Origin: a virus
Lineage: Duplodnaviria; Heunggongvirae; Uroviricota; Caudoviricetes
Length of the DNA: 64,000 bases
IMG/VR virus record: IMGVR_UViG_3300046460_000418
Reading direction: 5' to 3' (one strand)
Program-made: the position numbers and the translations under genes
Notes under the pieces: model-generated
The model's database searches: none
Told to the model about the DNA's origin: nothing
The model's input: the letters and a program-made list of their open reading frames with translations, nothing else
Part shown: positions 1 through 64,000 of the stretch, piece after piece
How positions within the stretch are numbered: position 1 is the stretch's first letter
Layout: each line of letters begins with the position of its first letter

Positions 1-3000
1 GGCGTAAAGCTAACGGCCTGAACTCCAACCGTTCCGAACGTCATCTTGTTGCTGGCAATGTTCGAAATTTGAGGTACGGCTTCAATCGGCTTGACGACAA
101 TTGAGAAGACATTCGAGTTCTGAATGTCGCCGATGCCGTCGGTTCCCGTAATCGTCAGGTTGGCAAAGGTTGAAGGGGAGCCCGTCGGAGTACCACTGAT
201 GGTCCCGTTATTCTGATCGACTTCAATGCCATCAGGCCAGGTGCCCGCGCCCTTTTTATAGGTGACGGTGCCGATGTTGTTGCTGGTGTCTACCGTTACC
301 GGCGTAGACGCACCTTGGGTGACTGTGACCTGAGTTGGGGCAACGATCTTCAGGTTCGGAATAACTTCGACTACGACTGACTTCGCCGTCAGGCGCGTTA
401 GGGTTTCATCCGAGACGGATAGACTAAAGGTGAATTTACCCGTAGCCGCCGCCGTGCCCTGGATTGCACCAGTATCTCTATCAAGTCCGAGGCCGCTGAC
501 TGACGCCAGGTCCGTGGAGGAGAACTTCAGCTTGCCATAGGTATTTGATGTCGACAGGGCAGTCGCCGCAAAAGGCGGCTCCATCTTGTAACCGAACCCT
601 ACCTTGGTAGTTACGTTCGAAACGTTAAGGACAATCGCGTCCGCTGGGCTAAGGACGTTGATCGTCAGTGACGCCGAAGCGGTTGCGTTGACTGCATCCT
701 TAGCCGTCACGACAATGCCCGTATATTTCTGGACGATGTTCGGAATGCCCGAGAAATGGACGCCTGCATCGTCAATCGTATAAGTCACGTTCGGCGGCAA
801 CGTGCCAGAAACAGTCCAGGTCACCGGCAATCCATAGGCCGGATCGCCCGCTGTCACCAACAAGTCGACATTCTGACTAACTATCACGCCTTTCGGGTTC
901 GACGAGGGAAGGACAGCAAGAGGCTTGCGGGCCAGCACCGTGAACGACAATGGCGTAGATGTTATTTCGCGACCAGCGGCATCCGTTGCCTTCCAGACGA
1001 CATTCGATGTGGAGATCACCGACGGATAACCGGCATAGGTGATGGAATTGGCCCCGACGATGTTGGAAATATCTACTGGCAAAGTACCGGAGACTTTTGT
1101 CCAGGAAACAGCGCGGCCGTAGGCAGCATGATTGACCACGGTCGATGCTGATGTCTGCGTCTGGTACTGGTAGAGGCTTTCAGCGTTGGTTTCAGTTCCC
1201 GCAACCATGTTGGCTACAGTGAGTGCATCGGCGGCCGCGACCGTAATCGTGATTGGGCTGGTTTCAGCGCGGTTGGCGTCAACCCTCGTCGGATCAGAAG
1301 GTGTCGTGTATTTGTCCTCATGATCGTCAGTTGCGATGAGCTTGATGTCGTCGAAGATACCGGATTTAGATGGAATTCCTTCCAGCGTCAGCGCAGCCGG
1401 ATCGAAAACCAGAGCATCGGGCGCAAGATCGGATGGGTTGGAAACGACCTGCTGTCCACCCGCAGGCAGCGGATGAACCCATCCGGTGCTCTGCTTGATG
1501 TAGTAGGTACCTGGGAAGGTTCCTGTCAGTTGGTAATTCGCGGTGCCGATAACATCGCTCGCTCCCTGGAAGGAGATCGAGATAGGTTCGGCAGCAGAAA
1601 ACTGCTTCGCAACAAAACTTCCTATCGGTGCAACGATGGAGAGCGCTGGTTTCACAGTCACCTTTAGCCTGACAGGCTCATCCATGAGCCGCTGGGCGGT
1701 GTCTTCGAGGTTCATCGCGAAGGTGTAGGTGCCTGTGGTCGGGACCTGACCATGAAGGACGCCTGTGTTCGCGTTGAAACTGAAGTCTGCAGGCAGCGGG
1801 TCAACATTGAGGTTGTATACCGGCGCACCTATTGTGCCGGTAGGCGTCTGCAAGGCCGTGTCGAATGTCTCACCTGTTCTAACGGTTAGCTCTTGAGCGC
1901 CAGGAGAGAGTGTGATCGGATCGCCGTCCTGGTAAACCGAAAACGCAATCTCCACGTCCTGCGGTTCGCCGAGATCATCGACAGCGTGGACAAGAATATT
2001 CTTATAGGAACCACGGACGGAAGAGACGCCGCTGAAGTGCAAATTTGCGTCTTTGATCGCGTAGGTTACGCCCACGGGCAACTTAGCAACTTCCGACGGA
2101 GCAAGTGTCCAAGTCACCGGCTTGCCAAAAGCGGTGTTTGTCGCCGTGATCGTCATGTCGGCATCTCCGGTGTTGACGATCATCGGTTTCGGGTTGACGG
2201 AAGGCGTCAGAGTAAGTGCTCCGCGATCACCGACAGTTATGGCAATTGCAGGTGTGTCGATATGGCGGCCTAGAGCATCCGTTGCGCGATAGATAGCTCC
2301 GGCAAAAACACCCTTTTCGGTTGGATACCCGTCAAAAGTAAGCCCGGCAGTTTCGGCTACAACCGATATCCCCTGGGGCAAGCTTTCAGAAATCTTTTCC
2401 CATGTGAGTGGCTTACCATAAGCAGCACCTGTAACAGTGATCTTTCCAACAGGCTTGCTGGTAAACTGCTGAATGGCTTCCGTTTCGACGGACTTGCTAA
2501 CAGTGAGATCAGCAACCGGCGCAACATTGATCGTAAAGCCAACACTCGCGACATTGGTCGCATCACGGCTGGCATCATTGTAGGTGTTCTTATGGTCATC
2601 GATGGCCAGCAGGTAAGCGCTGTCGAAGGTACCTGACTTTGATGGAATTCCTCTCAGAGTGAGCGTGGTTGTATCAAAGACTAGCGCATCAGACGGCAAG
2701 TCAGAGATTTGCGTGACAGTTTCGACGGAGTTGTCAGCATTGAAATGATTCCAGACGCCATTTTCCTTGTAGAACAGCGTGCCAGGCAGTTCACCCACAA
2801 CCTTGTAGGAAACTTGACCAATAACATTGTCAGCAGGCTTAAAGGTGATATTGACCGGCTGCTCCGCAGAATATTGCGTCGCCTCGTAAAGCGGTGTGTC
2901 GAGTTGAAGCTTCAGAGCATCGATCACATTGACTGCAACGGTCGCGGGCGCTGCGAAACCGCGCTGGTCTTCGTCTATCCCGTTGATCGCCCAGTTCATT

Positions 3001-6000
3001 GACCCGGCTGTGTCAACATTACCATGGAAATAGCCGTCAGCCGCGTCAAACGTTACGGTGTCCGGCAGTACGGAGCTGCTATCCAGCGTGACGCTTCCAA
3101 CGGCGTTGGAAGTCGTGAACGGATTTAGCGTTTTGAAGCTTTCGCCAACACGGACCGTCTTGAGCTGAGCCTTTGCTGTCGGAATAACGAAGCCGCTCAG
3201 GGTCGTTTTGATTGCGACGTCATCAATCTTCGACGATGGGATGGTATCACTGTCGCTGACACGAATAGTGACATGCTCGGTACCGAGTCTCGTCGGAGTG
3301 CCGGTCAACTCCCCCGTTTGAGGATTGATGCCGACCCATGAAGGATGCGGATCATCGATAGAGAAGATCAGAGGCTTCACGTACGAGCCGGTCGGCTTGG
3401 GCGCGGGGACGAAAACTCCTTTCTTTGCAAGCGTGTACGACCCGCTGTCATCCGGAGTGACCTGGAATGTCAGCTCATGCTGAGGTAGTGCAAAAGCCAT
3501 TGCAGCCTGATCTGTCACGTTAATCGGGAACGGATCGGTGTCATCCCAAATACCAGTTGTTTTGTCCGTTGCGCGGATGACGATCCCCGGGAATGCACCC
3601 TTACTGACGTTGGTCGAACCGACAATTTGCCCATTAACCGGTGACAGGCCTTTCGGAAGGGCCTTTGAACTCGGGGATAGCGCGAAAGTTACACCACCGA
3701 AGTAACCGGTATTGGTCTTGCCCTTGATCTGCAGGTCGTCCGCATCGGAAAGACGAGGAAGGTTGTAGCTCGGCTGCTCCGTTGTTACCATTGGGTAAGG
3801 CAGGATTGTCAGATGAACCTTAGCAGAACCAGGACGACCTGCCCCATCGGTGAAGTTCAACGACACCATACCGTCGAACTCCTGTGTCGGATTACCGGAC
3901 AGGATGCCGTTTGAATATGTAAGGCCACCAATAACCGGGGAGTAATCCGTATAGGTGACGCCAGTCACTCCGCCGATCAAGGTATCTTCCGTGGCGCTGA
4001 AATCGAGAGGCAATGTCGTCAGGAAGCTCGGTATCAAGCCGGTGACGTTTTTGGTGATTGGAGCCATCGCCTTCGCCGCAGGCTGATCAGGGTCCTTAAC
4101 GGTGACAGCAAATTCGGCGGAATCCTTGGTGTAGCCTTCACTGTCCGTGACGGTGATCTTGTACCCGCTAATTGTTTCGACCTTGCGGGCTCTACCGGTG
4201 ATCACTCCACTTGTACCATCAAAGATGAGACCATCCGGCACGGACTGATTTATGGTGTAAACCAGTGGTAGGTCCTGTATCAATTTAGGCTCTGTGACCG
4301 AAAAAGGTTGCTTGCCGGTCTTCTCGTCAAAATTGACTGTAAAACTTGGAGCGACAGTCTCATTTGCGATCATGTCATCGCGGTCGGTCACTTCAATCCA
4401 GAAATCATTGCTGTCCGCAACGCCATCGGTCGTATCGCCGCTTCCGTCGATCAGATGGATATGGAAAGGCCCGTACTTGTCGACAGGAAGTTTAGTCCCA
4501 CCCGATAGCACGCGGGTCTGGCTATCGAAGCCGAAACCTGTTGGCAGGAGGTCTCCCCGAAGACTGGTAATCGGGTAATCGACCGAACCGGCCGCACCGG
4601 GAACAACTCCCATCTCGTCAAAGCTGGCGACCGCAAGCATATTTGACGTATTGTAGCGCTTAACGGAAATCAGGCCGATATCATCTGCGACCAGTTTCTT
4701 GTAGACGACGAAGGCCTTCGACGCCTTTTTTCTGACGCCGTTGCCGTTGGTAACAATGAACGTTGCCGTGAACGGCCCGGTCTCGGTTGTTGATCCCGTG
4801 ATCTTGCCGCTAGTCGGATCAAAGGTCACGCCGTCCGGAAGGGATGCTGGATCGTCGATGGCAACGGAATAAGGAGCAACAAGGGCTCCGCCAGGTACGA
4901 CTGTTGCGTCAAAAGGCCGACCAACACGCTCATTACCAAGATTGTTGATTGTCAGTGTGACAGGAGCTGGAACGACAGAGATCGTAAATGGACCGCAGGA
5001 GTAGCTGTTCTGCGTACCGCTTGTCGTTAATGTTATTGTGATGGGGACAGTGGTGTCACCGGTCGCTGTTGGTGCTCCGGAGATCAGCCCCGTCGTTACA
5101 TCAAGCGTGAGGCCATTTGGAAGCGAAAAGCCGGAAGTTACTTCATACTTTGCGCTACCTCCCGCGAGGGCGAGGGGTATCTGGTAGGAATTGAACGCGT
5201 TTATCGTCCAAGTGATCGGGTAGGGGTTCGAACAACGAGGTTTCGGTGCTTTCGAACCGATCATGAACCAGTCGCTGTATCCGTTAACACCATCAGAATC
5301 GACGGCGCGATAGCGAATTTTTGCCTGGTCATTGTATTCTGTGATATCGCCCGTCAAATTGCGGGCATGGGAATCGGAGTTCTGAACAATCGTGCCTGGC
5401 AGTTCATATGCTGGGTCGACTTCGACATAATATCGGACGCTGTCAGGACTTGCTATTGGTCGCAAAATCTTGGAAACAGACGTCGACCAGTGATAGGTGC
5501 CAGACGTTGGTGGTGTCGTTCCGACATTTGGCAAAGAAACCAATTTGTCGACCATCTTAGCAAATCGAGGGGCGTCCTCTACGGTGAAATTGCCCCAAAT
5601 CGCGGCTACCGCGTTGTCAAGGTAATCAAAGCCCTCGACAAGAACAGGGTAAGCGCCCGCCTTGGTCGGTGTTCCGTCGAAATTGCGACCAAGAATTTGG
5701 ATGCCGTCCGGAGCAGGACGCAGCATCAACCAATGGTCAACAGAACCGACCGGTATATCGACCTGATTAAAGGAATAGGAATTGGTGTGGGCATAATAGT
5801 CAACTTGCTTCCTGTTTGACGGGAGCTGATACATGTCGAACGTGACTTCGGCGGAAGCTACTGCTTCGCCCTTTGTGTCATAGCCTCGCATCTCCACGAC
5901 GACAGCCTTCTCTTCGGTCGTGGGCGTGCCCGTAAACATCAAGGTTGAACTATCAAAGGAAATGCCACCCGGCAGACTACCTTCGACAACTTGCCAATTA

Positions 6001-6236
6001 TCGTCTTCCCAATCCGATTTCATAGGAAGTTTTTCTGAAAACGCATCCCCGACGCTGCCGATGAAAAATGCTGTGATGTCCTTGGCTTGTGAGGGGTCGT
6101 CCGGGTTGTCAACGGGGGCGGAATCCGTCGTCAAGACCCTGTATCTGAAGTAAAACTGTCCTCCAGAGAAATCGGTAGCGGCTGCCTGCGTGGCAATCGC
6201 TGTCGCAAGGGTGATGGAAAGCAGTTTTTTCAACAT
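1..6236 (-). CDS. Giant secreted repetitive protein, paralog A (5' start in window at 6236, 3' end off-window; >2078 aa); signal peptide + conserved N-terminal module + tandem putative Ig-like/He_PIG-type repeats
   Basis: Reverse-complement of 6236 downward reads ATG TTG AAA AAA CTG... = MLKKLLSITLATAIATQAAATDFSGGQFYFRYRV..., closely parallel to the N-termini of the 6784-12576, 47787-54152 and 56555-64000 products (e.g. 'YAHTNSYSFNQVDIPVGSVDHW' vs 'YAHTGKYSFNALPIPNGITVDHW'). It is not in the ORF track because no stop lies inside the window. The frame is continuously open. Confidence 0.8.
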   Translation of the reverse strand, partial: MLKKLLSITLATAIATQAAATDFSGGQFYFRYRVLTTDSAPVDNPDDPSQAKDITAFFIGSVGDAFSEKLPMKSDWEDDNWQVVEGSLPGGISFDSSTLMFTGTPTTEEKAVVVEMRGYDTKGEAVASAEVTFDMYQLPSNRKQVDYYAHTNSYSFNQVDIPVGSVDHWLMLRPAPDGIQILGRNFDGTPTKAGAYPVLVEGFDYLDNAVAAIWGNFTVEDAPRFAKMVDKLVSLPNVGTTPPTSGTYHWSTSVSKILRPIASPDSVRYYVEVDPAYELPGTIVQNSDSHARNLTGDITEYNDQAKIRYRAVDSDGVNGYSDWFMIGSKAPKPRCSNPYPITWTINAFNSYQIPLALAGGSAKYEVTSGFSLPNGLTLDVTTGLISGAPTATGDTTVPITITLTTSGTQNSYSCGPFTISVVPAPVTLTINNLGNERVGRPFDATVVPGGALVAPYSVAIDDPASLPDGVTFDPTSGKITGSTTETGPFTATFIVTNGNGVRKKASKAFVVYKKLVADDIGLISVKRYNTSNMLAVASFDEMGVVPGAAGSVDYPITSLRGDLLPTGFGFDSQTRVLSGGTKLPVDKYGPFHIHLIDGSGDTTDGVADSNDFWIEVTDRDDMIANETVAPSFTVNFDEKTGKQPFSVTEPKLIQDLPLVYTINQSVPDGLIFDGTSGVITGRARKVETISGYKITVTDSEGYTKDSAEFAVTVKDPDQPAAKAMAPITKNVTGLIPSFLTTLPLDFSATEDTLIGGVTGVTYTDYSPVIGGLTYSNGILSGNPTQEFDGMVSLNFTDGAGRPGSAKVHLTILPYPMVTTEQPSYNLPRLSDADDLQIKGKTNTGYFGGVTFALSPSSKALPKGLSPVNGQIVGSTNVSKGAFPGIVIRATDKTTGIWDDTDPFPINVTDQAAMAFALPQHELTFQVTPDDSGSYTLAKKGVFVPAPKPTGSYVKPLIFSIDDPHPSWVGINPQTGELTGTPTRLGTEHVTIRVSDSDTIPSSKIDDVAIKTTLSGFVIPTAKAQLKTVRVGESFKTLNPFTTSNAVGSVTLDSSSVLPDTVTFDAADGYFHGNVDTAGSMNWAINGIDEDQRGFAAPATVAVNVIDALKLQLDTPLYEATQYSAEQPVNITFKPADNVIGQVSYKVVGELPGTLFYKENGVWNHFNADNSVETVTQISDLPSDALVFDTTTLTLRGIPSKSGTFDSAYLLAIDDHKNTYNDASRDATNVASVGFTINVAPVADLTVSKSVETEAIQQFTSKPVGKITVTGAAYGKPLTWEKISESLPQGISVVAETAGLTFDGYPTEKGVFAGAIYRATDALGRHIDTPAIAITVGDRGALTLTPSVNPKPMIVNTGDADMTITATNTAFGKPVTWTLAPSEVAKLPVGVTYAIKDANLHFSGVSSVRGSYKNILVHAVDDLGEPQDVEIAFSVYQDGDPITLSPGAQELTVRTGETFDTALQTPTGTIGAPVYNLNVDPLPADFSFNANTGVLHGQVPTTGTYTFAMNLEDTAQRLMDEPVRLKVTVKPALSIVAPIGSFVAKQFSAAEPISISFQGASDVIGTANYQLTGTFPGTYYIKQSTGWVHPLPAGGQQVVSNPSDLAPDALVFDPAALTLEGIPSKSGIFDDIKLIATDDHEDKYTTPSDPTRVDANRAETSPITITVAAADALTVANMVAGTETNAESLYQYQTQTSASTVVNHAAYGRAVSWTKVSGTLPVDISNIVGANSITYAGYPSVISTSNVVWKATDAAGREITSTPLSFTVLARKPLAVLPSSNPKGVIVSQNVDLLVTAGDPAYGLPVTWTVSGTLPPNVTYTIDDAGVHFSGIPNIVQKYTGIVVTAKDAVNATASASLTINVLSPADAIVLNVSNVTTKVGFGYKMEPPFAATALSTSNTYGKLKFSSTDLASVSGLGLDRDTGAIQGTAAATGKFTFSLSVSDETLTRLTAKSVVVEVIPNLKIVAPTQVTVTQGASTPVTVDTSNNIGTVTYKKGAGTWPDGIEVDQNNGTISGTPTGSPSTFANLTITGTDGIGDIQNSNVFSIVVKPIEAVPQISNIASNKMTFGTVGVQAVSFT

Positions 6237-6547: not shown

Positions 6548-6622
6548 TGGCCACGTAGCTCAGTGGGAGAGCGCCGCACTGTCGATGCGGAAGTCGGGGC
6601 TCCAATCCTCCTCGTGGCCGCC
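6548..6622 (+). tRNA. tRNA-Asp(GTC)-like element with encoded CCA; T-arm is non-canonical (possible pseudo-tRNA / degenerate copy)
   Basis: Cloverleaf read by eye. Acceptor GGCCACG / CGTGGCC is a perfect 7 bp. D-arm is GCTC-AGTGGGA-GAGC. Anticodon arm is CCGCA-CTGTCGA-TGCGG (5 bp perfect, anticodon GTC). Discriminator G + CCA at 6619-6622. The T-arm GGGGC-TCCAATC-CTCCT has a C:C mismatch and lacks the TTC of the T-loop in either register, which looks like a single indel. Confidence 0.5.
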
Positions 6623-6738
6623 ATTTCCTTTGTAAATTGGTTGAAGGCGCTCCGCTCGTTCAACGAAGCGAAATTGAACGACCTGCTTGCTCAGATGGAA
6701 GAGTTGTAAAGCCCACCATTATTGACGGAATAAGTTCG

Positions 6739-6783: not shown

Positions 6784-9700
6784 TTACCAACTGAAGACGA
6801 ACGTACCAGTTGCCGCCGAGGTCAAGCTGAACGTGCCCGCCGTTTTCCAAGCCAGTCCATCCATCGATGACTCGACCCGGACCGACGACAACTTTCCGCT
6901 CGTCGATGAACTCGAATGACCGAGGTACAGCCGCCGAATATCGACAGGTTGGATGAACTGTACATTGGCTATCGAACTACCAATCGTCGCACCATAATTC
7001 GATGAACTGCCCGCACCTATCGACGAGCTGATGGACACAATGTTGCTCGTCATCGTTTTCGCGGAAACAAGGGCAGCGTCGCGAAGATCGAGACGACTGA
7101 AACCTACGCTGCCTGTCGGCGTTGTGAACCGGGAGACAGCGATGACGCGCCAGTATGTCGCTCCTTCCACCTGTTTGGTAACGCGAACTGTATAGGACTG
7201 CGTCGCGGTAACGGTCTCGTCACCATCCTGGAACCTTGCGGTGACCGTGAACGATTGGTCGACAAAGTCTGCTCCGTCCGGGATCGCAACCTGCTCAAGT
7301 GGCTCCGTCAACACACCGTCCTGGATCGTTGCCAGGTTCAGGCCTGACACCGACCATGTCAAAGATGACAGGGAGATGTTTGTCGCATTCGCAAGCGGCT
7401 TGAAATCGAACTTCAGCGTGTCTGCCGTCGTTCCTTCAGGCATATCCGCCGTGGCCAGCTGCAATCCGACCTGAGGGGTTACAACGATCAGGCTGTAAAC
7501 CGCAGATGCCGTTCTCGACGGTCCCGTCACTGTTACACGGAAATTGTATGTGCCAGGCTCGGTCGCAACACCTGAGACGACACCGTTGCTGAGCGACAAA
7601 CCGGGGGGTAGCTTCGTTCCAGCAGTGTTCCACGTCCAGTTCAAGCCGCTTTCGCTAAACCCAATTGCTGTCATGTATTGTTTCAGGTCGAACGAATAAG
7701 TCTCAATTCGCTTGGTCGCCTGCTGCAATGGGCCGCTGTCCAGTGTCAGGTACAACGCTCCAGGCTCAACCCGGAACGTGATCGGGTCTGACCTGCCGGT
7801 ATCACCAAGACTGTCGGTGCTCGTGACGTAGACTGGACCGAACGTTCCAGAAGCCGTCGGCGTACCCTGGAACACACCTTTTGCCTCGTCAAAGGTCACT
7901 CCTGGCGGCAGGGCGCTGGCATTTTCCAGCTTCCAGTCCGCAGAGCCGACCACGAAGTTCCGGGTGATGAAGACATCATCCATTTCTTCCTGAGCCGTCG
8001 GTGCAATGATTGAGGGAGCGACGATCCGCATCAGAGGCAAGACATTGAGAGCCAGGGGCTTGGAAGTGACCCGGTTGGTCGTGTCGGTGATCGACAGGTT
8101 GACGGTGCGGTCCTGCGGGGTCGAGAACGATCCTGTAACAACCCCGGTATCCCGGTTCACAGAAAGGCTCGTGCCATCGAGGTCTAGCGAGTAGAGGTAA
8201 TAGTCGCCGAGCGTGTTGTCTATGAAAGGAACGGCTGTCGTGATCGGAAAGCCAACCTTCGTCGTCAGGGACTGAACTTCGAGTTCAATCGGGTCATCGT
8301 TCATGAAGACCGTAAAGAAGAACGGTGCGCTGTATCCGACGCCGGGAAGGTCGTCATGAACCGCAAGCCGAATTGGTCCAAATGCACCGACCTGCAGCGG
8401 CTTGCCGAGGAACTTGCCAGTTCCGGTTTCGAGGGACAGTCCCTTCGGGAGTTTCGATGGATCGACGATACTCCACGCAGGCTGACCGGAGATTGTCGTA
8501 ACCGATGGGTTCGGGCCATTGCTGTCCTTGTAGTCGTAGTTGTAAATCAGATCGCTTTCAGCTTGCATGCTGACTGTTATCGCTCCGAAAACCTGGATGT
8601 GGATGGTTTTCGAGGTCGAGCGGCCGGTCAGGTCGGAGATCGAGACAACAACGGAGGTGTTGAATGAATGGTCCGGAGTTCCTGCCAGCTGCCCGGTAAC
8701 GGGGTCGAAAGCAAGTCCGGTGTCCTCTGCGCCGGAAACAGACCATTCAATATCGCCAATGGTATTCTTGACGTCAGGGATGCCGGTCGTCAAAGGGAAG
8801 CCAATGCGGGCTTTGATCTCCGTTGGAACTTCCATGAGAATAGGAGAGCCATCCAGCTTGACGGTAAAGATGAAGTTCTTGGTCGTCGAAATGGCCTCAC
8901 CGTTATAGGTATCCGTCAGCTTAATGGTGATCGGTTCGGACGTTCCGAGTTCAGTGGCTGTTCCGACGATTGCACCAGTCTCGGATTGGAAGCTCAGTCC
9001 CGGAGGCAACAGCGAGGCGCTGGTGAGCATTTGCCAGGAGATATCCCCAACCGTACCGGTCTTCATCAGCTTTATAGCGTATAGTTTGCCCATGAGAGCT
9101 GTCTGCTCGCTCTTCGAGACGATTTGCGGCTGTGGGCGCTCGGAAATCGAGATCGAGAAGTAGCCGGTCGATGCCGTTTGCCCATCGAAGTCGTCGGTAA
9201 CGATAATCCGGTACCCCGAGGTCACTCCGCTCTCGATTGCGATGCCCTGGATGACGCCACTGCTAGAATTGAGCGTCAGGCCATCAGGCAGCGCCGTAGA
9301 ATCAGGTGCCATCGCATAGGAGAGCCTGCCGATCCTGTTTTCGACCGTCACCGACCCTTGCTTCTGCACAAACCGCTGGAACGGCATATCCTCTGGCGTT
9401 GATGCCTTGAGGTCGTCGACCACATGGAAGAGAACCGTGTTCTCGGCCGAACGGTTGAACAAGTCGGTGACTTTCGTTGCAACCTCGAAGTCGTCCACTT
9501 CGTAGAAGGCCGCAGTCAGTGTACCCGTTGTGGTGTTGATCAAAACGGTTCCAGGAAGGCTGCTATAGTCGCCTGACAAGGCAAAACTGTAGGGATCGAC
9601 CAGATTACCTGCGAGCGCCGGATATTCCTTCGCTGCGGCACCTCTGCGGACATTGTTGGTCTGGTCTGCAAGAGCCACAGAGCCGAACTTGGTGACCCTC

Positions 9701-12576
9701 AGGTTGAGAGTCAGCGTATAGTTTTCGCCGGTCAGCAGGTCTTCCCCGTAAATCACGATATCGTTGAAGTAGCCGGTCTGGGTCGCGGCTCCGTTGATCA
9801 TCCCCGCATAAATGCCGGTCGGAACCAGCTGGAGACCCGTGGGCAGCTTTCCGGATACGAGCGTGAACTTGAGATCGCCGACACGATTTTTAATGTCCGG
9901 TGCGAGGAAGGGCTCGCTGCGCTGGTAGTAGACTGTATCGCCGCTATAGCTGAACGAGAAGGTCAGCGGCGGTCCGACATGAATTGTGAAGGGTTCAGTC
10001 TTCTTGATATCGCCAGTCGTGTCGCTGACAACAATCCGGCTGACAAAATCGCCTTCAACGAGCGGCGTGCCATGAACTTGGCCTAGCTGGGCGTCAAACT
10101 TCATACCTTGCGGAAGAACAGAGTCTTCCTCAAGCGTGTAAGTGAACGGTCCGATGCCGTTATCCTTTACGGGCCTGACCTGGAGGGCTTTGCCGACATT
10201 GCCGTTGTACACCGCATCAGCCGTGAGCGCCAACGGTGGCTGAATATGGAAACTGATCGCACCGATTGCTGGAGCGCGGGCGGTATCGTCATCGACCGTG
10301 TAGTTGATCGTGAAGTCGCCAGCTTCTCTGAAGACGCCGTTGACATCGAAGTTATCAAGCGTAATGCCCCAGACATTGTCATCGAGCGCATAGCTAGTTG
10401 GGCCGAACCCATTGCTCACCTTGCCGATATTGAAGTCCTTGAACGAACGATCTGCCGACCAGGTAAACGACCGCGCCAGGTCGCCGTCCAGAGGGTCGAT
10501 GTCCCAAGGCTCGACAACGTGCAGATCGACGGCCAGATCGGCAGTGTACTTGTCTTCATCCGTTGCACGGATGGTGACGGGATAATGCGTACCGATTGGG
10601 TCCGTGGTGGTCCCCGTCAGAAGGCCGCGAACGGTATCAAAAGACAGCGTCGCCGGTATCTTTCCATCGATGATCTTGAAGCTGGCCTTGCCCACACCGT
10701 TGGCGGCTTCGAGGATAGTCGACTTATTGCCGACATAGCGCTGGACACGGTCCTCAAGTAGCGTCAGGGCTATTGGAGCCCGGTCTACGACCGAAATCGT
10801 GAAGGGCTCGGAGACAATCGGTTGATCAAAACCATCCGTCAGACGGACCTGGAAAGTACCCAGATCAGCGATGTCTTTTTGCTCCTTCGGCGTTCCTGAG
10901 AATGTGCCGCTGCGCTCGTCGAATTTCATCCAGGAAGGCAAGGTTCCCTGGACCAGTTCGAATTTTGACGGATCGCGCATGCTCATTGGAGCAATGGTCG
11001 GCCTCACATAGGCTGCGGTGGTTCGCACAAGATCGTAATGAGGTTCGTAGGCAATCGAGAGATCATTGTAGATGCGAATGATCTGGTAGTTATTTTCGAT
11101 CTGACCAACCGCGTTCTGAACGGTCAATTGCTGATCGTATACGCCCGGCTCATCAATACCTTCGGACGAGTAGGTGCCCGTGTTCAGGTCGAAGGAAATT
11201 CTTTTGTCATGGACGTTGGAAGCGTAATTCATCGGCGCAAGAAAACCTTCGGTGACGGAAGGTGGCTTGGTGATAAATGGCTTATTGACCCGCTGATGCA
11301 TGGCCTCCAGATCAACGATCAGTTCATTCGGAAGGACCGTAAATTTAAACGGGTTCGATTGAACAGGATCGATGCCGCTGCCAGAAACCCGGACGATAAT
11401 GTCATTGAACTCCGATGGTGTCGTTGGTGTGCCGCTGATCTTGCCCGTCGTCGGATCGAGCTTGATACCGTTGGGCAACTGGCCCTGGGCGATTTCCCAA
11501 AGCAGCGACACACCTTGAACGCCAGGTGAAAACGACTGGCGGAAGTCTTTGGCGACTGTCGCCCTCAGATCGGGGATATTCGAAAGAGACAAGACGGCGG
11601 GCGTTGTGGTGAGTGCGAAGATATTCGACCGACCTGTCCGGCCATCTGCACTGTCACGGGCCTCGATCTGAAATTTTGCACTCGTATCATAGGCGTCGAA
11701 CACACCGCTGATTTCGCCCTTGTCAGTCGTGAAACCAATGCCGGTCGGTCGGAAGGTTACCGGAACGAGCCGGAACGAAAGTGTTCCAATCTTATGAGGG
11801 ACTTTCGGCGTTACCGCGAAGTCATCACCTTCATTTTTGTCTGCGATCTGATCCTTGATGTCTCGAACGGACGGGCCATCTTCGACCACGAACTGACCGT
11901 AGGTGAAGGCGACTTCACGGTTGAGGTAGTCAAAGCCACGCCATGCGACTGCGTAGTTCCCGGCGGTGCTGGGCGTCCCCTCGAATGCACCGACGCGAGT
12001 TTGCATGCCTTCGGGATTATTCGTGACCGCATCCCAACGAGTAACGGTGACACCTGCGGGGGTCGGTATCTGGGAGAAGAAGTAGCGGCCGGTGTGGTCG
12101 TAGATGTCAATCTGCTGGACATTGCCAGCCGTCTCGAACGTTTCGAAGAAAATCTTGGCGCGGGCTATACGGGTGCCAGATGCGTCAAAGCCATAGTACA
12201 ACGCGTCCTTTTCCTGTTCAGCAGTGGGCTTGCCCTCAAGAAATCCCGAATTGTCTAGCCGAATGCCATCTGGAATGTCGCCCGTTCCCTTTACCCAACG
12301 AACGACATCGCGGGTAGCAACGGGAACTTCGCGGGAAAAATCGTATCCTACAGGGGCAACGAAATAGGCGTCGATATTGTTGCCGATACCATATTGGGTG
12401 GGATCATCAGGATCGCTGGTTCCCGGTTGGCCCGGACCCGCCGGGTCTGAACCGCCCGGAGCGTAATTGATCAAGCCCGTCTTGTATCGATAAATGTATT
12501 CGTTTGACGCGGACGCCGTCAGTGGCGAAAGCGCCAAAGAAGATGCGACCAAAATCGAAAGCAATTTTTTCAACAT
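6784..12576 (-). CDS. Giant secreted repetitive protein, paralog B (1930 aa): Sec signal peptide, conserved N-terminal module, tandem He_PIG-like Ig/cadherin-like repeats, C-terminal discoidin (F5/8 type C)-like domain
   Basis: N-terminus MLKKLLSILVASSLALSPLTASA is a Sec signal. Repeats carry the motif 'LPNGIKLDPTTGKISGTPT', 'LPTGLQLVPTGIYAGMINGAAT', 'FDPVTGQLAGTPDHSFN'. C-terminus has '...YWRVIAVSRF...SSVRVESSMDGLAWKTAG...' resembling the discoidin / galactose-binding fold. RBS-like GAGATAATCT lies before the ATG. Confidence 0.9.
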   Translation of the reverse strand: MLKKLLSILVASSLALSPLTASASNEYIYRYKTGLINYAPGGSDPAGPGQPGTSDPDDPTQYGIGNNIDAYFVAPVGYDFSREVPVATRDVVRWVKGTGDIPDGIRLDNSGFLEGKPTAEQEKDALYYGFDASGTRIARAKIFFETFETAGNVQQIDIYDHTGRYFFSQIPTPAGVTVTRWDAVTNNPEGMQTRVGAFEGTPSTAGNYAVAWRGFDYLNREVAFTYGQFVVEDGPSVRDIKDQIADKNEGDDFAVTPKVPHKIGTLSFRLVPVTFRPTGIGFTTDKGEISGVFDAYDTSAKFQIEARDSADGRTGRSNIFALTTTPAVLSLSNIPDLRATVAKDFRQSFSPGVQGVSLLWEIAQGQLPNGIKLDPTTGKISGTPTTPSEFNDIIVRVSGSGIDPVQSNPFKFTVLPNELIVDLEAMHQRVNKPFITKPPSVTEGFLAPMNYASNVHDKRISFDLNTGTYSSEGIDEPGVYDQQLTVQNAVGQIENNYQIIRIYNDLSIAYEPHYDLVRTTAAYVRPTIAPMSMRDPSKFELVQGTLPSWMKFDERSGTFSGTPKEQKDIADLGTFQVRLTDGFDQPIVSEPFTISVVDRAPIALTLLEDRVQRYVGNKSTILEAANGVGKASFKIIDGKIPATLSFDTVRGLLTGTTTDPIGTHYPVTIRATDEDKYTADLAVDLHVVEPWDIDPLDGDLARSFTWSADRSFKDFNIGKVSNGFGPTSYALDDNVWGITLDNFDVNGVFREAGDFTINYTVDDDTARAPAIGAISFHIQPPLALTADAVYNGNVGKALQVRPVKDNGIGPFTYTLEEDSVLPQGMKFDAQLGQVHGTPLVEGDFVSRIVVSDTTGDIKKTEPFTIHVGPPLTFSFSYSGDTVYYQRSEPFLAPDIKNRVGDLKFTLVSGKLPTGLQLVPTGIYAGMINGAATQTGYFNDIVIYGEDLLTGENYTLTLNLRVTKFGSVALADQTNNVRRGAAAKEYPALAGNLVDPYSFALSGDYSSLPGTVLINTTTGTLTAAFYEVDDFEVATKVTDLFNRSAENTVLFHVVDDLKASTPEDMPFQRFVQKQGSVTVENRIGRLSYAMAPDSTALPDGLTLNSSSGVIQGIAIESGVTSGYRIIVTDDFDGQTASTGYFSISISERPQPQIVSKSEQTALMGKLYAIKLMKTGTVGDISWQMLTSASLLPPGLSFQSETGAIVGTATELGTSEPITIKLTDTYNGEAISTTKNFIFTVKLDGSPILMEVPTEIKARIGFPLTTGIPDVKNTIGDIEWSVSGAEDTGLAFDPVTGQLAGTPDHSFNTSVVVSISDLTGRSTSKTIHIQVFGAITVSMQAESDLIYNYDYKDSNGPNPSVTTISGQPAWSIVDPSKLPKGLSLETGTGKFLGKPLQVGAFGPIRLAVHDDLPGVGYSAPFFFTVFMNDDPIELEVQSLTTKVGFPITTAVPFIDNTLGDYYLYSLDLDGTSLSVNRDTGVVTGSFSTPQDRTVNLSITDTTNRVTSKPLALNVLPLMRIVAPSIIAPTAQEEMDDVFITRNFVVGSADWKLENASALPPGVTFDEAKGVFQGTPTASGTFGPVYVTSTDSLGDTGRSDPITFRVEPGALYLTLDSGPLQQATKRIETYSFDLKQYMTAIGFSESGLNWTWNTAGTKLPPGLSLSNGVVSGVATEPGTYNFRVTVTGPSRTASAVYSLIVVTPQVGLQLATADMPEGTTADTLKFDFKPLANATNISLSSLTWSVSGLNLATIQDGVLTEPLEQVAIPDGADFVDQSFTVTARFQDGDETVTATQSYTVRVTKQVEGATYWRVIAVSRFTTPTGSVGFSRLDLRDAALVSAKTMTSNIVSISSSIGAGSSSNYGATIGSSIANVQFIQPVDIRRLYLGHSSSSTSGKLSSVRVESSMDGLAWKTAGTFSLTSAATGTFVFSW

Positions 12577-12761
12577 AGATTATCTCAGATGTTCCCACAC
12601 GCGAAATGTTAATGTTGCCCAAACCCTGAAACAACCAGAAATGTTTCGATACGCACCAATTAAACCAATGAAAAGTAAGGGGTTTGTGGAAAATATCGGC
12701 TCTGCAATTTCGAAAAATTCGAAGCTCGTCAACGTATTGGCGGCACCAATTTTTGTGATCG

Positions 12762-12947
12762 ATGACGCCCTTAACGCAGGAGTTTCACAAGGAAATCGCC
12801 GACGGTCGGGGAATTAGAATACAACAGGTCGACTTCGACGACCTGGCCGGTGTGATGGCAACCATCGTCGACACCTATCCTTCGAACCGAATGACCCAAG
12901 CGATCAAAGCATCGCTTGAACGCTGGGCATCGGGCCCATCAATCTGA
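12762..12947 (+). pseudogene. C-terminal remnant (~60 aa) of a sixth member of the P-family (see 13010-18453)
   Basis: Translation '...DDLAGVMATIVDTYPSNRMTQAIKASLERWASGPSI' aligns to the P1 C-terminus 'DEVAGTMQEMLPHLARKDLKQEKGVRAAIGRWNLRPTDLTASGPRI' (D[DE][LV]AG[VT]M..., RW..., ASGP[RS]I-COOH). There is no N-terminal body. It lies in the 430-nt gap between gene B and P1. Confidence 0.5.
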
Positions 12948-13009
12948 GATCAGCTTGTCGCTTACGCAATTTGACCTAAAGATGAACTGTGCAGGCAAGA
13001 GAGAATATC

Positions 13010-14113: not shown

Positions 14114-14123
14114 GAGCCCGACC

Positions 14124-15197: not shown

Positions 15198-15208
15198 GAG
15201 CCGCTGCC

Positions 15209-16231: not shown

Positions 16232-16233
16232 GC

Positions 16234-17313: not shown

Positions 17314-17322
17314 GGACCAAAA

Positions 17323-18453: not shown

Positions 18454-18513
18454 AAGCGTTTGACCTTGTCTCCGCGAGACGCTCACAATGGGCGATTACG
18501 TTGAGGATCGACC

Positions 18514-19098
18514 ATGGATATTCGCTGGCACAAAAACCCGCTGCGGACCACCTACGCGCTGACAGATGATGAAAAGGCGACCTTCCGGCTGAAGGTTCGC
18601 CTGGAATTGCTCGAAGAAGCCATGTCCGATGCTGTATTCCACCTGGATGTGAACGAGAGCCGCCAGTATCACGACCCACATGTGGCTCTCCAGCGGCTTC
18701 AGGCGGCGATGCCAGACGATGACGACAAAGAACCGGCCAGGGTTCAACAACAATACGAAATGCTGCTCCACGAGCTTGAAAACGGCTGCCATCACGGTGA
18801 CTGCACATGCTTCAGTGCATCTTGCGCCAAATGCCGCGCGGAGCAGATTCTCGGATGCGACAGCATCGAAGGACTGGGAAAACATTCCGCTCGACAAGTC
18901 GACGGGTCATTCGGACCGGAATGCGAACGCAGCCTCGATGAGGCCATCGAAAGACTTGCAGCCTACGAGCCGGTGCGAAGCGGCTCATGGCTAAATTATC
19001 CGGAGGAGGATTTCGCGGCTTATGTACCTGGATGGAAGGCGCAAGCTAAGGCAGCCCATGAATGGCTGGTTGCTTATCGCGCCGCCCATTTCTCGTAA
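18514..19098 (+). CDS. Hypothetical protein (194 aa) with a Cys/His cluster (CHHGDCTCFSASCAKCRAEQILGC); possibly the last gene of the P operon
   Basis: GAGGA RBS 8 nt before the ATG, 60 nt after the P5 stop, same strand. No recognisable family. Confidence 0.6.
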   Translation: MDIRWHKNPLRTTYALTDDEKATFRLKVRLELLEEAMSDAVFHLDVNESRQYHDPHVALQRLQAAMPDDDDKEPARVQQQYEMLLHELENGCHHGDCTCFSASCAKCRAEQILGCDSIEGLGKHSARQVDGSFGPECERSLDEAIERLAAYEPVRSGSWLNYPEEDFAAYVPGWKAQAKAAHEWLVAYRAAHFS

Positions 19099-19101
19099 CA
19101 G

Positions 19102-19455: not shown

Positions 19456-19595
19456 GACTCTGCCTTTTTTGAGTGTGCGTTGGCATGGAAATAGAGCGCA
19501 AAACGAATAAATGCAAGTTTCCTTCAAGGAATCTATGATTGCGATCTGGTGCGAGGTGCATTATCTCAACAAATAGCCGGTGAAAGGAAACACAA

Positions 19596-19778: not shown

Positions 19779-19784
19779 ATGCGG

Positions 19785-23765: not shown

Positions 23766-23786
23766 TAATGGGTCTTATCGGTATTT

Positions 23787-56554: not shown

Positions 56555-59500
56555 TTAGGGCGTTGCTGTCAGCGTGTATGATGTCGTTGCCGTTATGCCA
56601 TCTTTGCTATCGGTAACCGTTACTGTGACCGGGAAGGTTGTGCCCCCCGTGACCGATGCCGGAATAGTCCCCGAAATCGACCCCGTCGCCGAGTTGAAAG
56701 TCATCCCCGTGGGCAGGCCGGTTACAACGTAGCTGGCCGTCCCGTAGACGTTTGCGGATGAGGGCACGTTGATGTTCGTGTACACAGTCCCAATCTTCGG
56801 CGACAACGTCTTCGTCGGGATGGATGTGGTCAGACCCCAGAGGCTTTCAATATAGGCATTGAAATTTATGCTTCCTCTGCTGTCGGAAATGACGGCCGTA
56901 TTCAACCAGCCGCCTGCGGGCTGGCCGGTGATCACCGCACTCCCATTTTGCGGGCCGGTCTGGTAGTAGGACCCGGTCGAGGAGTCGATATTGCCGCCCT
57001 GGCCGGGATACTTTGCGAAGGTGACCGTTCCGACCCCATTGTAGACAACGATAGGGTCGGTGGCCCAGGCGCGGTCGACACGAACTGCGTAGTAGGTTTT
57101 CTGACCGGCCGCGACCTGAAGTACACCGGCCACCGATGTCAGTGTGTAGGTGACGGACTTCGAACTACCATCATAGCTGTCGGTAACGGTGACGGTAACC
57201 GGGTAGGTCTGCCCTACAGGTGTTCCGAGGGCCAGTTTCCCGGAAATTGACCCGCTTGCGTTTATAGCAAAGCCCGGGGGCAGACCAGTTGCGGCATACG
57301 AGGCGGTACCGACGACGTTTGTCGTGGTCGGCGTGTTGATCGAGGTGTAAGTCGTCCCGATCCCGAGCGACGTCGTCGGTGACGGGACAGACATTGTCAT
57401 GGCAGCATTGATGGTCACCGCGACGGTGAACGTCCCGGTTCTTCCCATCGAGTCACGGGCAGTGATGGTCACCGTGTTCGTGCCCGTGACGGTATAGGGA
57501 CCGCTGAGGACGCCGGTTGCGCCATTGAATGATCCTCCAGGGGCGAGGGCGCTATTAGTATAGGTGACACCTCCGACGGTATTGTCGAACAGAGGCGCGA
57601 CTGTCGAGAACGCGGCACCGAGGCGGGTCCTATAAGCGGTCTGCTGTCCCGCTTTCGCTGTAATTGGCCCCAACAAGGCCGTCAGCGTATAGCTTGCGGT
57701 TTTGGTCGACCCATCATAGCTGTCCGTCACGGTCACCACGACCGGGAACGTTGTTCCGCCCGCATAGGATGACGGAACGGTGCCGGATATCGCCCCCGTG
57801 GTCGGGCTGATCGTCATTCCCGCTGGCAGGCCGGTGGCCGTATATGATGCGATACCGACAAGCGACGTGACCGTCGGCGTATTAATGTTCGTATAGGCCT
57901 GGCCCATGTTCAGGGAGGTCGTCGGCGAACTGACTGCAAGCGCCAGAACAGGGTTGATGGTGACCGCGACGACGAACGTCCCGGTTCTTCCCGTCGAGTC
58001 AGTAGCCGTAATGGTTACCGTGTTCGTGCCGGAAATAGTATAGGGGCCGGTGATAACGCCTGTCGCGGAGTTGAAAGTACCTCCTGACGTCAAGGCGCTT
58101 GACGTGTAGGTGACACCTCCGATGGTGTTGTAGAACAGAGGCGCGGAGGTCGAGAACGCTGCACCGAGACGGGTATTGTAAGTGGTCTGTTGTCCCGATG
58201 TCGCCGTGATCGGACCGTTTGAGACCGTCAGCGAATAGGAGACGGTTGCCGTCGTAGCGTTCACTTCATAGGTGTCGGTGACCGTCACGGTTATCGGCAC
58301 GCTTACTGGCCCGGAATAACCGGCCGGGATGGTTCCCGAGATCGAGCCGGTTGTCGGACTTACTTGCAGACCCGCTGGCAGACCCGCTGCGGTATAGGAC
58401 AGGGTTCCGTACCTCCCGGTGACGCTCGGAACGTTAGCATCTGTCACCGCCGTGCCTATCACGACCGCAAGCGTGCCGGAAGGTACGGTTACGGTCAGAG
58501 GCGACATGTCGAAGTTGAACTGGGTGATGCTTCCGGTCCGACCAAATTCGTCTGTGACCTTGGTCGTGGCGGGCCAGCCGCCCGCAGGTTGGCCCGCCAG
58601 GGCGCTCGCACCCTCTGGACCGTCTGTATAGACACCAGTCACTCCGTCGAACGTGGAGGTCACGCCTGACTGCGGGGTGTAGGTCTTGTTGCCGATGAGG
58701 TTATCCCACAGCAGCGGATTGCTTGAATACCCCTTGTCGATACGGATGTAATACTTTGTCACCTGACCTGCGGTCGGAACGATTGCGTTTGCTGGAGCAA
58801 CACCGAACCAGAATGGGGTGGTGGTCGCCGCGTCGCCGCGCTGTGAGGTGACGGTGATCGTCAGGTCGCGGTAGATGATGGCAGCCGTCGGTGTGCCGGA
58901 GATCGTGCCGGTCGACGGATCGAACGACAGGCCGGTGTCGGCCGTCAGGTTGTGGTTGAGGCTGTAGACGGTGCCTGCGTAGACCCAGGGATTATGGCCA
59001 ACGCTGTCGGTAACTGTCGGCTTGAAGGACGTAGCAGCGACGCCAACGGTGCCGAAGTTCAACTTGTTGTTGGTGATGTTGGAAATGACCGGCAGAGCGG
59101 CGGTGGGATTGACCACGATAGAGAAAGAGTTGGACGCTTCGCTGTCGCCGCTCTGGTCGCTGCCGCTGATCGTCAGTCCGGAATAAGTGCCGGTTGCAGC
59201 CGTTGGCGTGCCGACGATGGCTCCGGAGTTCGGGTCAACAGAAACACCAGCTGGCCAGCTTCCAGCACCCTTAGAGTATGTGGCCGCGCCGATCTTGTAG
59301 CTGACGTCGATTGCCGTGTTGGCTACGGCACCCTGGGTCAGGGTAACGTTGGTCGGAACCAGCAGGCGCAGCAGCGGATAGACCGTAACCTTCATCGGCA
59401 TGGATGTGACGCGGGCCGTCTGGTCACCGACGAACATGTTGAAGGTAGCCTCGGTGGGCGTGGCGACGGAACCGAGAAGTTCGCCAGTCGAGCCGTTGAT

Positions 59501-64000: not shown

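What the first reader, a model, noticed from the sequence alone, without database searches (positions are those of the whole stretch)
1..64000. Four paralogous giant Sec-secreted Ig-like-repeat proteins, all co-oriented, bracket the accessory block
Genes A (1-6236), B (6784-12576), C (47787-54152) and D (56555-64000) together occupy about 26 kb of this 64-kb window. All have a Sec signal peptide, a family-specific ~230-aa N-terminal module (..F[RF]Y[RK]....Y[FA].A..G..F......P......D...W... then YxHTGxYxFxxxPxxxG[IV]TVxxW ... G[NQ]F.VEDGP) and then dozens of ~90-100-aa repeats with the He_PIG / dystroglycan-cadherin-like signature 'LP.GL.ld..TG.isGtPt..G.y.ftvtatD'. They lack RTX, autotransporter, LPXTG or T1SS features, so surface retention and function are unclear. 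Four diverged copies in one locus suggest a surface-variation or adhesin repertoire.
Basis: partly seen in the sequence, partly recalled or inferred. Interest (0 to 1): 0.65.

Follow-up and report, generated by a model that had tools for sequence, protein, structure and literature searches.

The report
Giant lectin-tipped Ig-repeat surface proteins
Four very large, old paralogous genes in this window encode Sec-exported strings of about 20 Ig-like domains, three of them ending in a sugar-binding (discoidin/CBM32-like) head; they belong to a large, uncharacterised family of probable fibre-like adhesins whose named members are Rhizobium-group bacteria, and how they attach to the cell is unknown.

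Summary
Four co-oriented minus-strand genes (A 1-6236, B 6784-12576, C 47787-54152, D 56555-64000) encode 1930-2489-aa acidic, nearly Cys-free proteins built from 17-22 detectable He_PIG Ig-like units. They form two old pairs (A~D, B~C).

- The "family-specific N-terminal module" is not a new fold. It is a signal peptide, a conserved [YF]x[F]RYK motif at the mature N-terminus, an ~18-aa Pro/Glu-rich linker, and two more Ig/cadherin-like domains.

The architecture recurs in more than 100 clusters (50% identity) of 1.8-2.9-kaa proteins. Named members are all Rhizobiaceae and are annotated only as "putative Ig domain-containing protein". Their heads are interchangeable (discoidin-like, RCC1 propeller, or none), and several genomes carry 2-7 copies.

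No RTX, T1SS, autotransporter, TPS, usher or LPXTG feature was found, and no neighbouring gene is conserved.

Best reading: fibrillar lectin-tipped adhesins with a cell-proximal N-terminus and a distal variable head. A diversified adhesin repertoire is plausible. Phase or antigenic variation is not supported: there are no DNA repeats and no conversion tracts, and orthologues are 88-96% identical. This is an uncharacterised variant of a known kind, of moderate interest.

The parts
1..6236 (-). Gene A, N-terminal 2078 of 2467 aa. The rest, including a discoidin-like C-terminal domain, lies beyond base 1.
   Evidence: Translation. Full length is P0201, 100% identical over the visible part. He_PIG E 5e-55. 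19 repeat units in the visible part.
6138..6155 (-). A: mature-N-terminus motif FYFRYR (aa 28-33)
5559..6158 (-). A: conserved N-terminal region (motif, Pro-rich linker, two Ig-like units)
   Evidence: Pfam He_PIG 33.4 bits on unit 1.
6549..6623 (+). tRNA-Asp(GTC) in the A-B intergenic region. Context only, not part of the proteins.
   Evidence: ARAGORN; Rfam RF00005, 53.6 bits
6784..12576 (-). Gene B, complete, 1930 aa, 207 kDa, pI 4.7, no Cys
12481..12498 (-). B: motif YIYRYK (aa 27-32), directly after signal peptide MLKKLLSILVASSLALSPLTASA
11863..12501 (-). B: conserved N-terminal region
6787..7182 (-). B: C-terminal discoidin/CBM32-like domain (aa 1799-1930)
   Evidence: Family C-terminal profile E 3e-28. 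Profile vs PDB hits CBM32/F5-8C structures. Pfam PF00754 is weak, E 0.039.
12577..47786 (.). 35-kb intervening block. Mostly ORFans, five tandem 357-376-aa paralogues, a restriction-type helicase with five HA domains, and an SPFH protein. No link to the giant genes was found.
47787..54152 (-). Gene C, complete, 2121 aa, 226 kDa
   Evidence: It is the representative of its cluster in the protein collection.
54060..54077 (-). C: motif FVFRYK (aa 26-31). Predicted disordered, outside the Ig folds.
   Evidence: AlphaFold2 pLDDT is below 50 for residues 17-44.
53478..54080 (-). C: conserved N-terminal region. Ig-like domains at aa 53-132 and 138-219, with a third at 224-312 downstream.
47790..48194 (-). 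C: C-terminal discoidin/CBM32-like domain (aa 1987-2121)
   Evidence: Pfam PF00754 E 4.6e-5, 24 bits, below the gathering score of 28.2. Family profile vs PDB: 7nsn 1.5e-15, 4a42 8e-11, 7blg 4e-10.
56555..64000 (-). Gene D, 2481 of 2489 aa. The GTG start is 24 nt beyond the window end. Ends in Ig-like repeats with no discoidin domain.
   Evidence: He_PIG E 9e-85. No hit to the C-terminal profile.
63920..63937 (-). D: motif YFFRYR
63341..63940 (-). D: conserved N-terminal region
   Evidence: Pfam He_PIG 30 bits on unit 1.
57327..58172 (-). D: the only DNA-level internal duplication found (300-nt copies, 73% identical, 546 nt apart, a two-domain unit)

Best explanation
A, B, C and D are four old paralogues of a large, uncurated family of Sec-exported fibrillar adhesin-like proteins; every member of that family that carries an organism name comes from Rhizobiaceae.

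Shown:
- Each protein has a cleavable-looking signal peptide.
- A conserved [YF]x[F]R[Y]K motif sits at the predicted mature N-terminus, followed by an ~18-residue Pro/Glu/Gly-rich linker.
- A rod of about 20-25 He_PIG Ig/cadherin-like domains follows.
- In A, B and C the protein ends in a discoidin/CBM32-type (F5/8 type C) domain. The B and C heads are only ~21% identical to each other.
- Relatives keep the N-terminus and stalk but swap the C-terminal head for an RCC1 beta-propeller, a discoidin-like domain, or nothing.

Inferred:
- The conserved N-terminal tag is the cell-proximal end. It would be recognised for export and/or retention by a conserved envelope component encoded elsewhere.
- The stalk projects the head away from the cell, on the order of 100 nm if each Ig-like domain contributes the ~4 nm typical of such domains (a figure from general knowledge, not computed here).
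- The variable C-terminal head binds glycans, such as plant or microbial polysaccharides or the cell's own exopolysaccharide.
- The four copies therefore give the cell a set of different binding specificities, not a switching system.
For: - He_PIG arrays in all four.
- AlphaFold2 model of C residues 1-325: mean pLDDT 83.7, three beta-sandwiches, motif region disordered. Foldseek top hits are cadherin EC arrays, the SraP adhesin and titin.
- The C-terminal profile hits CBM32/F5-8C structures at 1.5e-15 to 1e-6. 19 of 30 family tails hit PF00754. Full-length A also ends in this domain.
- A profile search of 1.84 billion representatives found 455 hits at E<=1e-30. 100 of the 165 proteins then held (the best 150 plus cluster members) carry the full module starting within their first 100 residues, typically at ~25-226, in proteins of 1.8-2.9 kaa.
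- The motif is conserved in 121 representatives, and R29 is invariant in an independent MAFFT alignment.
- Heads are modular: about 70 discoidin-like and about 35 RCC1.
- A 312-aa protein near a relative carries the same signal peptide, motif and Pro-rich linker on otherwise different content. This is consistent with a portable N-terminal tag.
- The proteins are acidic, Thr-rich and have 0-2 Cys in ~2000+ residues, which I regard as typical of extracellular proteins.
- Multi-copy is usual: 4 copies on one contig in Rhizobium sp. MHM7A, 7 places on R. leguminosarum TP16 pRlX5, 2 copies in Pararhizobium BT-229.
Against: - No outer-membrane translocation or anchoring route is identified. A Sec signal alone only reaches the periplasm of a diderm.
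- No conserved neighbouring gene was found.
- The discoidin assignment for the window copies is below Pfam's gathering score, and the AlphaFold2 model of that domain was poor, pLDDT 52.
- Glycan binding, surface location and adhesion are all untested.
- The role of the motif rests on conservation, predicted disorder and one small protein.
- D has no recognisable head.
Confidence: 0.55

Rival explanations
1. Released matrix proteins, not anchored adhesins. After export they are shed and cross-link exopolysaccharide or biofilm matrix through the lectin head and multivalent Ig rod. This is functionally like the Rap lectins of Rhizobium leguminosarum (comparison from my own knowledge, not tested here).
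For: No anchor of any known type. Lectin-like head. Most predicted fibrillar adhesin-like proteins lack a known anchor (PMC8286594).
Against: The N-terminal motif and linker are strictly conserved at the opposite end from the variable head. That pattern is expected for a cell-proximal attachment or recognition element and is unnecessary for a freely released protein.
Confidence: 0.22
2. A surface-variation system. The paralogues would serve as a switchable or recombining repertoire for antigenic or phase variation.
For: Four paralogues within 64 kb, and multi-copy in relatives.
Against: No DNA tandem repeats. No shared DNA tracts longer than 58 nt between paralogues and no invertible-promoter-like repeats. 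Upstream regions are unrelated. Paralogues are only 25-45% identical, while orthologues are 88-96% identical.
Confidence: 0.04
3. Members of a known Gram-negative giant-adhesin route: T1SS RTX/LapA-like, autotransporter or inverse autotransporter, two-partner secretion, chaperone-usher, or an S-layer protein.
For: Size, acidity, low Cys content and Ig-like repeats resemble LapA/SiiE-type adhesins.
Against: - An N-terminal Sec signal replaces a C-terminal T1SS signal, and there are zero GGxGxD repeats.
- No beta-barrel, TPS, HemolysinCabind or SLH domain in Pfam or NCBIfam.
- No ABC/MFP, TpsB, usher or chaperone genes in the window or next to relatives.
- The first Ig domain is complete with 7 strands, so it has no need of a donor strand.
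Confidence: 0.04
4. A non-adhesive extracellular role. Examples are a protective or steric 'fence' against phage or predators, or a contact-dependent recognition rod, with RCC1 or discoidin heads acting as sensors or decoys.
For: The heads vary (RCC1 propeller or discoidin) and D has none. The genes lie in plastic, ORFan-rich regions together with a restriction-type helicase.
Against: No defence-system model matches the giants' neighbours beyond the helicase. The stalk-plus-lectin architecture is the classic adhesin layout.
Confidence: 0.1

Closest known systems
Fibrillar adhesins / FA-like proteins (Monzon, Lafita & Bateman 2021, PMC8286594)
   Same: A long tandem array of Ig-like 'stalk' domains plus a terminal putative binding domain, predicted to be extracellular. 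As for most FA-like proteins in that survey, no known anchor is present.
   Different: Whether that survey includes He_PIG arrays was not established: a search of its text for 'PIG' and 'F5_F8' found nothing. This family has a Sec signal, a conserved N-terminal tag and a C-terminal head in a diderm. No family member has been studied experimentally, as far as my literature searches show.
T1SS RTX giant adhesins (LapA, SiiE, MpIBP type)
   Same: A 200-kDa-plus acidic, Cys-poor rod of Ig-like repeats. Polarity is N-terminus at the cell and ligand-binding region near the C-terminus (known for these adhesins from my own knowledge; inferred for this family).
   Different: This family has a Sec signal peptide and no RTX repeats, no C-terminal T1SS signal, no LapG site context, and no adjacent ABC/MFP/TolC genes.
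CBM32 / F5-8 type C (discoidin) carbohydrate-binding modules, e.g. Clostridium perfringens NagH/NagJ modules and Bacteroides thetaiotaomicron CBM32 (PDB 4a42, 7blg, 7nsn)
   Same: The family C-terminal profile matches these structures at E 1.5e-15 to 4e-10. The typical YWR... and S-DG--W motifs are present.
   Different: Here the module caps an Ig rod instead of accompanying a glycoside hydrolase. The window copies score below Pfam's gathering threshold. Ligand and binding residues are unknown.
Database annotation 'putative Ig domain-containing protein' / 'alpha-tubulin suppressor-like RCC1 family protein' in Rhizobium sp. MHM7A, R. flavescens, Agrobacterium rubi and A. salinitolerans
   Same: True homologues with the same N-terminal region and stalk, 33-42% identical over most of their length.
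   Different: Many carry an RCC1 beta-propeller head instead of discoidin. None has a functional annotation, and no NCBIfam model covers the family.

Membership tests
He_PIG (PF05345) repeat proteins | Multiple matches to the He_PIG HMM above the gathering score | tested here: met
   184-280 bits against a cut-off of 24, with 8-13 stretches per protein
Fibrillar adhesin class | Tandem stalk-domain array | tested here: met
   17-22 units per protein, ~92-aa period. Ig/cadherin-like fold by AlphaFold2 and Foldseek.
Fibrillar adhesin class | A terminal adhesive (ligand-binding) domain | tested here: inconclusive
   A discoidin/CBM32-like domain is present in A, B and C by profile, but it is below the Pfam gathering score for the window copies. 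D has none. Binding was not tested.
Fibrillar adhesin class | A cell-surface anchor and surface localisation | tested here: not met
   No known anchor domain or motif. Localisation cannot be tested with these tools.
CBM32 / F5_F8_type_C | Sequence match to the family model or to solved members | tested here: met
   The family profile hits 7nsn at 1.5e-15, 4a42 at 8e-11 and 7blg at 4e-10. 19 of 30 tails hit PF00754 at E<=0.01. Single window copies are sub-threshold.
CBM32 / F5_F8_type_C | Beta-sandwich jelly-roll fold with a glycan-binding loop site | tested here: inconclusive
   The AlphaFold2 model of the C tail is all-beta but has mean pLDDT 52.5, which is too poor for a fold search.
T1SS RTX adhesins (LapA/SiiE type) | No Sec signal; RTX GGxGxD repeats; C-terminal secretion signal; cognate ABC/MFP genes | tested here: not met
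   A Sec-type signal is present. There are 0 GGxGxD motifs and no HemolysinCabind domain. No transporter genes in the window.
Type V secretion (autotransporter, inverse autotransporter, TpsA) | Beta-barrel translocator domain, or an N-terminal TPS beta-helix with a TpsB partner | tested here: not met
   No such Pfam domain. The N-terminal region is Ig-like, not a beta-helix. No TpsB-like neighbour.
Sortase-anchored (LPXTG) proteins | C-terminal LPXTG, hydrophobic segment and charged tail | tested here: not met
   No LPxTG motif in any of the four proteins
Chaperone-usher pilins (donor-strand exchange) | Incomplete Ig fold completed by an N-terminal extension; usher and chaperone genes | tested here: not met
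   The first Ig domain is predicted complete with 7 strands. No usher or chaperone domains were found in the window or in relatives' flanks.
Rhizobium Rap (Ra/cadherin-like, PrsDE T1SS) lectins | Ra domains; secretion by the PrsDE T1SS without a signal peptide | not tested
   No Ra-domain model was available here. The presence of Sec signals argues against the same route. The resemblance is functional only and comes from my own knowledge.

The most novel reading that the evidence does not exclude
The conserved mature-N-terminal [YF]xFRYK motif plus the ~18-residue Pro/Glu-rich linker is a new sorting or anchoring tag. It would direct Sec-exported giant Ig-rod proteins, and at least one small protein, across or into the outer membrane of Rhizobiaceae through an envelope partner not yet identified. 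That would be a surface-display route distinct from T1SS, T5SS, chaperone-usher and T9SS.
Probability: 0.2. Interest if true: 0.75.

Novelty: new variant of a known kind. Interest (0 to 1): 0.4.

Why it matters
Where members are named, they come from plant-associated Rhizobium-group bacteria, which depend on attachment to roots, soil particles and other microbes. Their known protein adhesins are few.

This family is large: more than 100 clusters at 50% identity, often 2-7 copies per genome, each about 0.2-0.26 MDa. It is invisible to current functional annotation. It combines an Ig rod with interchangeable lectin or propeller heads, so it is a ready source of testable glycan-binding specificities.

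It also poses a concrete cell-biology problem. A 250-kDa Sec substrate with no known outer-membrane route carries a short, strictly conserved N-terminal tag that can be mutated or used as bait. If the tag turns out to be ordinary, the finding is still a useful annotation: He_PIG stalk plus discoidin head.

Tried and rejected
- Word-indexed protein search with the 314-aa N-terminus of C returned nothing, although C itself is in that collection. This is a limit of the tool's sensitivity, not absence. The index-free profile search and full-length queries recovered the family.
- Megablast of the 19-kb block against plasmids: no match.
- Exact look-up of B's contig: not on record.
- The genome-contig scan found only 3 loci because the back-translated patterns were narrow.
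- AlphaFold2 of C's C-terminal 232 aa was low confidence, so no fold search was run on it. A sequence profile against PDB was used instead.
- Conserved neighbours were sought with tblastn, using all window ORFs against relatives' loci: none. Pfam tables of relatives' flanks show nothing recurrent.
- Shared upstream regulatory DNA: none.
- DNA tandem repeats and inter-paralogue conversion tracts: none.
- Block genes: no PHROG, PADLOC or Pfam matches except a restriction-type helicase and an SPFH protein, plus one weak IetA match (E 3e-05) on the 216-aa ORF at 46629-47279.
- Literature searches for He_PIG, RCC1 or Ig proteins in rhizobia found nothing specific.
- Donor-strand complementation of the first Ig domain by the motif was considered and rejected, because that domain is predicted complete.
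Full report
**What is in the window**

Six-frame ORF listing and translation show four very long ORFs, all on the minus strand:
- A, 1-6236. Its start is at 6236 and its C-terminus runs off base 1.
- B, 6784-12576, 1930 aa.
- C, 47787-54152, 2121 aa.
- D, 56555-64000.

An identical 26-kb Logan contig shows that D really starts at a GTG 24 nt beyond the window end. This gives MFKKFLSIMAMVLLSASAVPA|AEQ..., so D's signal peptide is only partly in the window. A TetR-family gene lies upstream of D.

A full-length copy of A exists in the protein collection (P0201, 2467 aa, identical over the 2078 visible residues). The window derives from a 199,398-bp JGI metagenome contig.

**Paralogy**

BLASTP shows two old pairs:
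- A~D: 38.6% identity over ~1600 colinear residues.
- B~C: 45% in the first 327 residues and 29% over the remaining ~1600.

Between the pairs, only the N-terminal ~225 residues align specifically, at 30-32% identity (E 1e-22 to 1e-29). The rest gives generic repeat-to-repeat matches.

A carries an extra ~400-residue block relative to D, which is a multi-domain block duplication.

At the DNA level there are no tandem repeats. No tract longer than 58 nt is shared between paralogues. The only internal DNA repeat is a 300-nt, 73%-identical pair in D. Upstream regions are unrelated.

**Repeats**

Pfam He_PIG (PF05345) matches all four proteins very strongly. A repeat HMM built and iterated on these same four proteins finds 19 (visible A), 17 (B), 21 (C) and 22 (D) units, spaced ~92 aa apart.

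The proteins are 207-259 kDa, with pI 4.7-4.9. They are Thr-rich and have 0-2 cysteines. None has a GGxGxD or LPxTG motif. NCBIfam has no model for them.

**The 'family-specific N-terminal module'**

It is not a separate fold.
- My repeat HMM places two units inside it in all four proteins.
- Pfam He_PIG independently hits the first unit of A and D above the gathering score.
- An AlphaFold2 model of C residues 1-325 (22-sequence alignment, mean pLDDT 83.7) shows three confident beta-sandwiches at 53-132, 138-219 and 224-312.
- The best Foldseek matches are cadherin ectodomains, the SraP adhesin, titin and other Ig arrays.

What is distinctive lies upstream of the first sandwich. Directly after the predicted signal-peptidase site comes a [YF]-x-F-R-Y-K motif. 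It is followed by a linker of median length 18 residues, rich in Pro, Glu and Gly. Both are predicted disordered in the monomer model, with pLDDT below 50 for residues 17-44.

The motif is conserved across 121 family representatives. The Arg is invariant and the Tyr at least 90% conserved in an independent MAFFT alignment.

B and C end in a ~130-aa non-repeat domain with weak Pfam F5/8 type C matches. Full-length A ends in the same kind of domain. D does not.

A profile of 30 family tails hits solved CBM32/discoidin modules:
- GH92 mannosidase 7nsn, 1.5e-15.
- Clostridium perfringens 4a42, 8e-11.
- Bacteroides thetaiotaomicron CBM32 7blg, 4e-10.
- Sialidase, factor V/VIII and lactadherin C domains at 1e-5 to 1e-3.

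19 of the 30 tails hit PF00754 individually. The AlphaFold2 model of this part was too poor to use. The heads of B and C are only ~21% identical to each other.

**The family**

A profile of the four N-terminal regions, searched without a word index against 1.84 billion representatives, gave 8298 hits at E<=1e-3 and 455 at E<=1e-30. Some hits are generic multi-repeat He_PIG proteins matched many times internally. This confirms that the module is made of He_PIG-type units.

Of the 165 proteins then held (the best 150 plus cluster members), 100 carry the full 200-residue module starting within their first 100 residues, typically at ~25-226. They are 1.8-2.9 kaa long and have a signal peptide and the motif.

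Their C-termini fall into three types:
- Discoidin-like, about 70.
- RCC1 beta-propeller, about 35, annotated 'alpha-tubulin suppressor-like RCC1 family protein'.
- Plain Ig endings like D, a few.

All named members are Rhizobiaceae and are annotated only as 'putative Ig domain-containing protein'. They are Rhizobium sp. MHM7A, R. flavescens, Rhizobium sp. BK176, Agrobacterium rubi, A. salinitolerans, a Shinella MAG, Pararhizobium sp. BT-229, and R. leguminosarum TP16 replicon pRlX5. The MHM7A locus has the same G+C content as the window, 53.8%.

Several copies per genome is usual:
- Four on one MHM7A contig.
- Seven places on pRlX5, which is the only one of 72,556 plasmid records with the module.
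- Two copies 28 kb apart in Pararhizobium.

Orthologues of D (P0202, 95.6% identical) and C (P0159, in the same 90% cluster as P0007, which is 88% identical to C) sit on the same 1.43-Mb metagenome contig. The paralogues are therefore stable genes.

**Surroundings**

Between A and B lies a tRNA-Asp gene. Between D and C lie a class I methyltransferase and an alpha/beta-hydrolase fragment.

The 35-kb block between B and C is mostly ORFans with no Pfam, PHROG or PADLOC match. It contains:
- Five tandem 357-376-aa paralogues.
- A restriction-type helicase with five HA domains.
- An SPFH/Band 7 protein.

None of the block genes recurs next to relatives. The flanks of the C orthologue are completely different, although equally rich in small ORFans. 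No transporter, usher, TpsB or sortase gene is adjacent in the window or in the relatives examined. I conclude that the 'bracketing' is incidental.

**Mechanism**

Shown: a Sec-type signal, a conserved tag, an Ig rod, and a discoidin-type head in three of the four proteins.

Inferred: the conserved end is cell-proximal and the variable end is distal and binds ligand. This is the usual logic for fibrillar adhesins.

One extra observation supports the tag as an independent element. A 312-aa protein 4 kb from a relative's giant gene has the same signal peptide, an FIFRYK motif and a Pro-rich linker. After that it has only one He_PIG unit and an unrelated Cys-containing C-terminal part.

How a ~250-kDa Sec substrate would cross or attach to the outer membrane is not explained by anything found here. 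Absence of a known anchor is itself common among predicted fibrillar adhesins (PMC8286594).

**Comparison and verdict**

The proteins work most like fibrillar adhesins. In polarity they resemble T1SS RTX adhesins, but they fail every defining test for T1SS, T5SS, chaperone-usher and LPXTG families. They are true members of the He_PIG repeat class, and by profile evidence they carry CBM32-type heads.

The family is present in databases but uncharacterised. No paper on it was found.

I rate it an uncharacterised variant of a known kind, of moderate interest. The 'adhesin repertoire' reading is plausible and the 'surface-variation' reading is not supported.

Noticed in passing
window 12989-18453 (+): Five head-to-tail paralogous genes (374, 357, ~342-361, ~360-373 and 376 aa), 25-28% identical with about 30 invariant residues (e.g. 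P-x-P-Y near the N-terminus and RWNLRP near the C-terminus). No Pfam, PHROG, PADLOC or plasmid-collection match.
   Followed up: partly
window 6549-6623 (+): A tRNA-Asp(GTC) gene sits alone in the 547-nt gap between giant genes A and B, on the opposite strand. It is a possible island-integration landmark, but no integrase was seen.
   Followed up: no
window 28262-31405 (+): A 1047-aa helicase. Its N-terminal ~470 residues match type IIG/type I restriction enzyme models (PADLOC E 3e-80), followed by ResIII/Helicase_C and five 'helicase-associated' HA domains. No methyltransferase or specificity subunit is adjacent.
   Followed up: partly
L008 4823-5761 (-), contig JBFOMN010000029.1: A 312-aa protein with the same signal peptide, FIFRYK motif and Pro-rich linker as the giants, but only one He_PIG unit and an unrelated Cys-containing C-terminal part. 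It lies 4 kb upstream of giant P0171.
   Followed up: partly
window ~840-2040 (-), i.e. A residues ~1400-1800: A has a ~400-residue block with no counterpart in D. It is itself similar to A/D residues ~850-1650, so it is an internal duplication of a four- to five-domain block.
   Followed up: partly
P0001 (4886 aa, from the representative search), residues 2225-2429: A complete copy of the N-terminal module, including the motif region, lies in the middle of a 4886-aa protein. This may be a fusion or read-through of two tandem family genes.
   Followed up: no
L010/L011 and L007/L008 flanks; window 19-47 kb: Family genes repeatedly sit among long runs of small genes with no Pfam hit, and the flanks differ even between 88%-identical orthologues. 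These are unusually plastic, ORFan-rich neighbourhoods for Rhizobiaceae.
   Followed up: no
NZ_CP140867.1 (R. leguminosarum TP16 pRlX5, 1.32 Mb): This is the only one of 72,556 plasmid records that carries the N-terminal module, and it carries it at 7 places. The record has no annotation.
   Followed up: no
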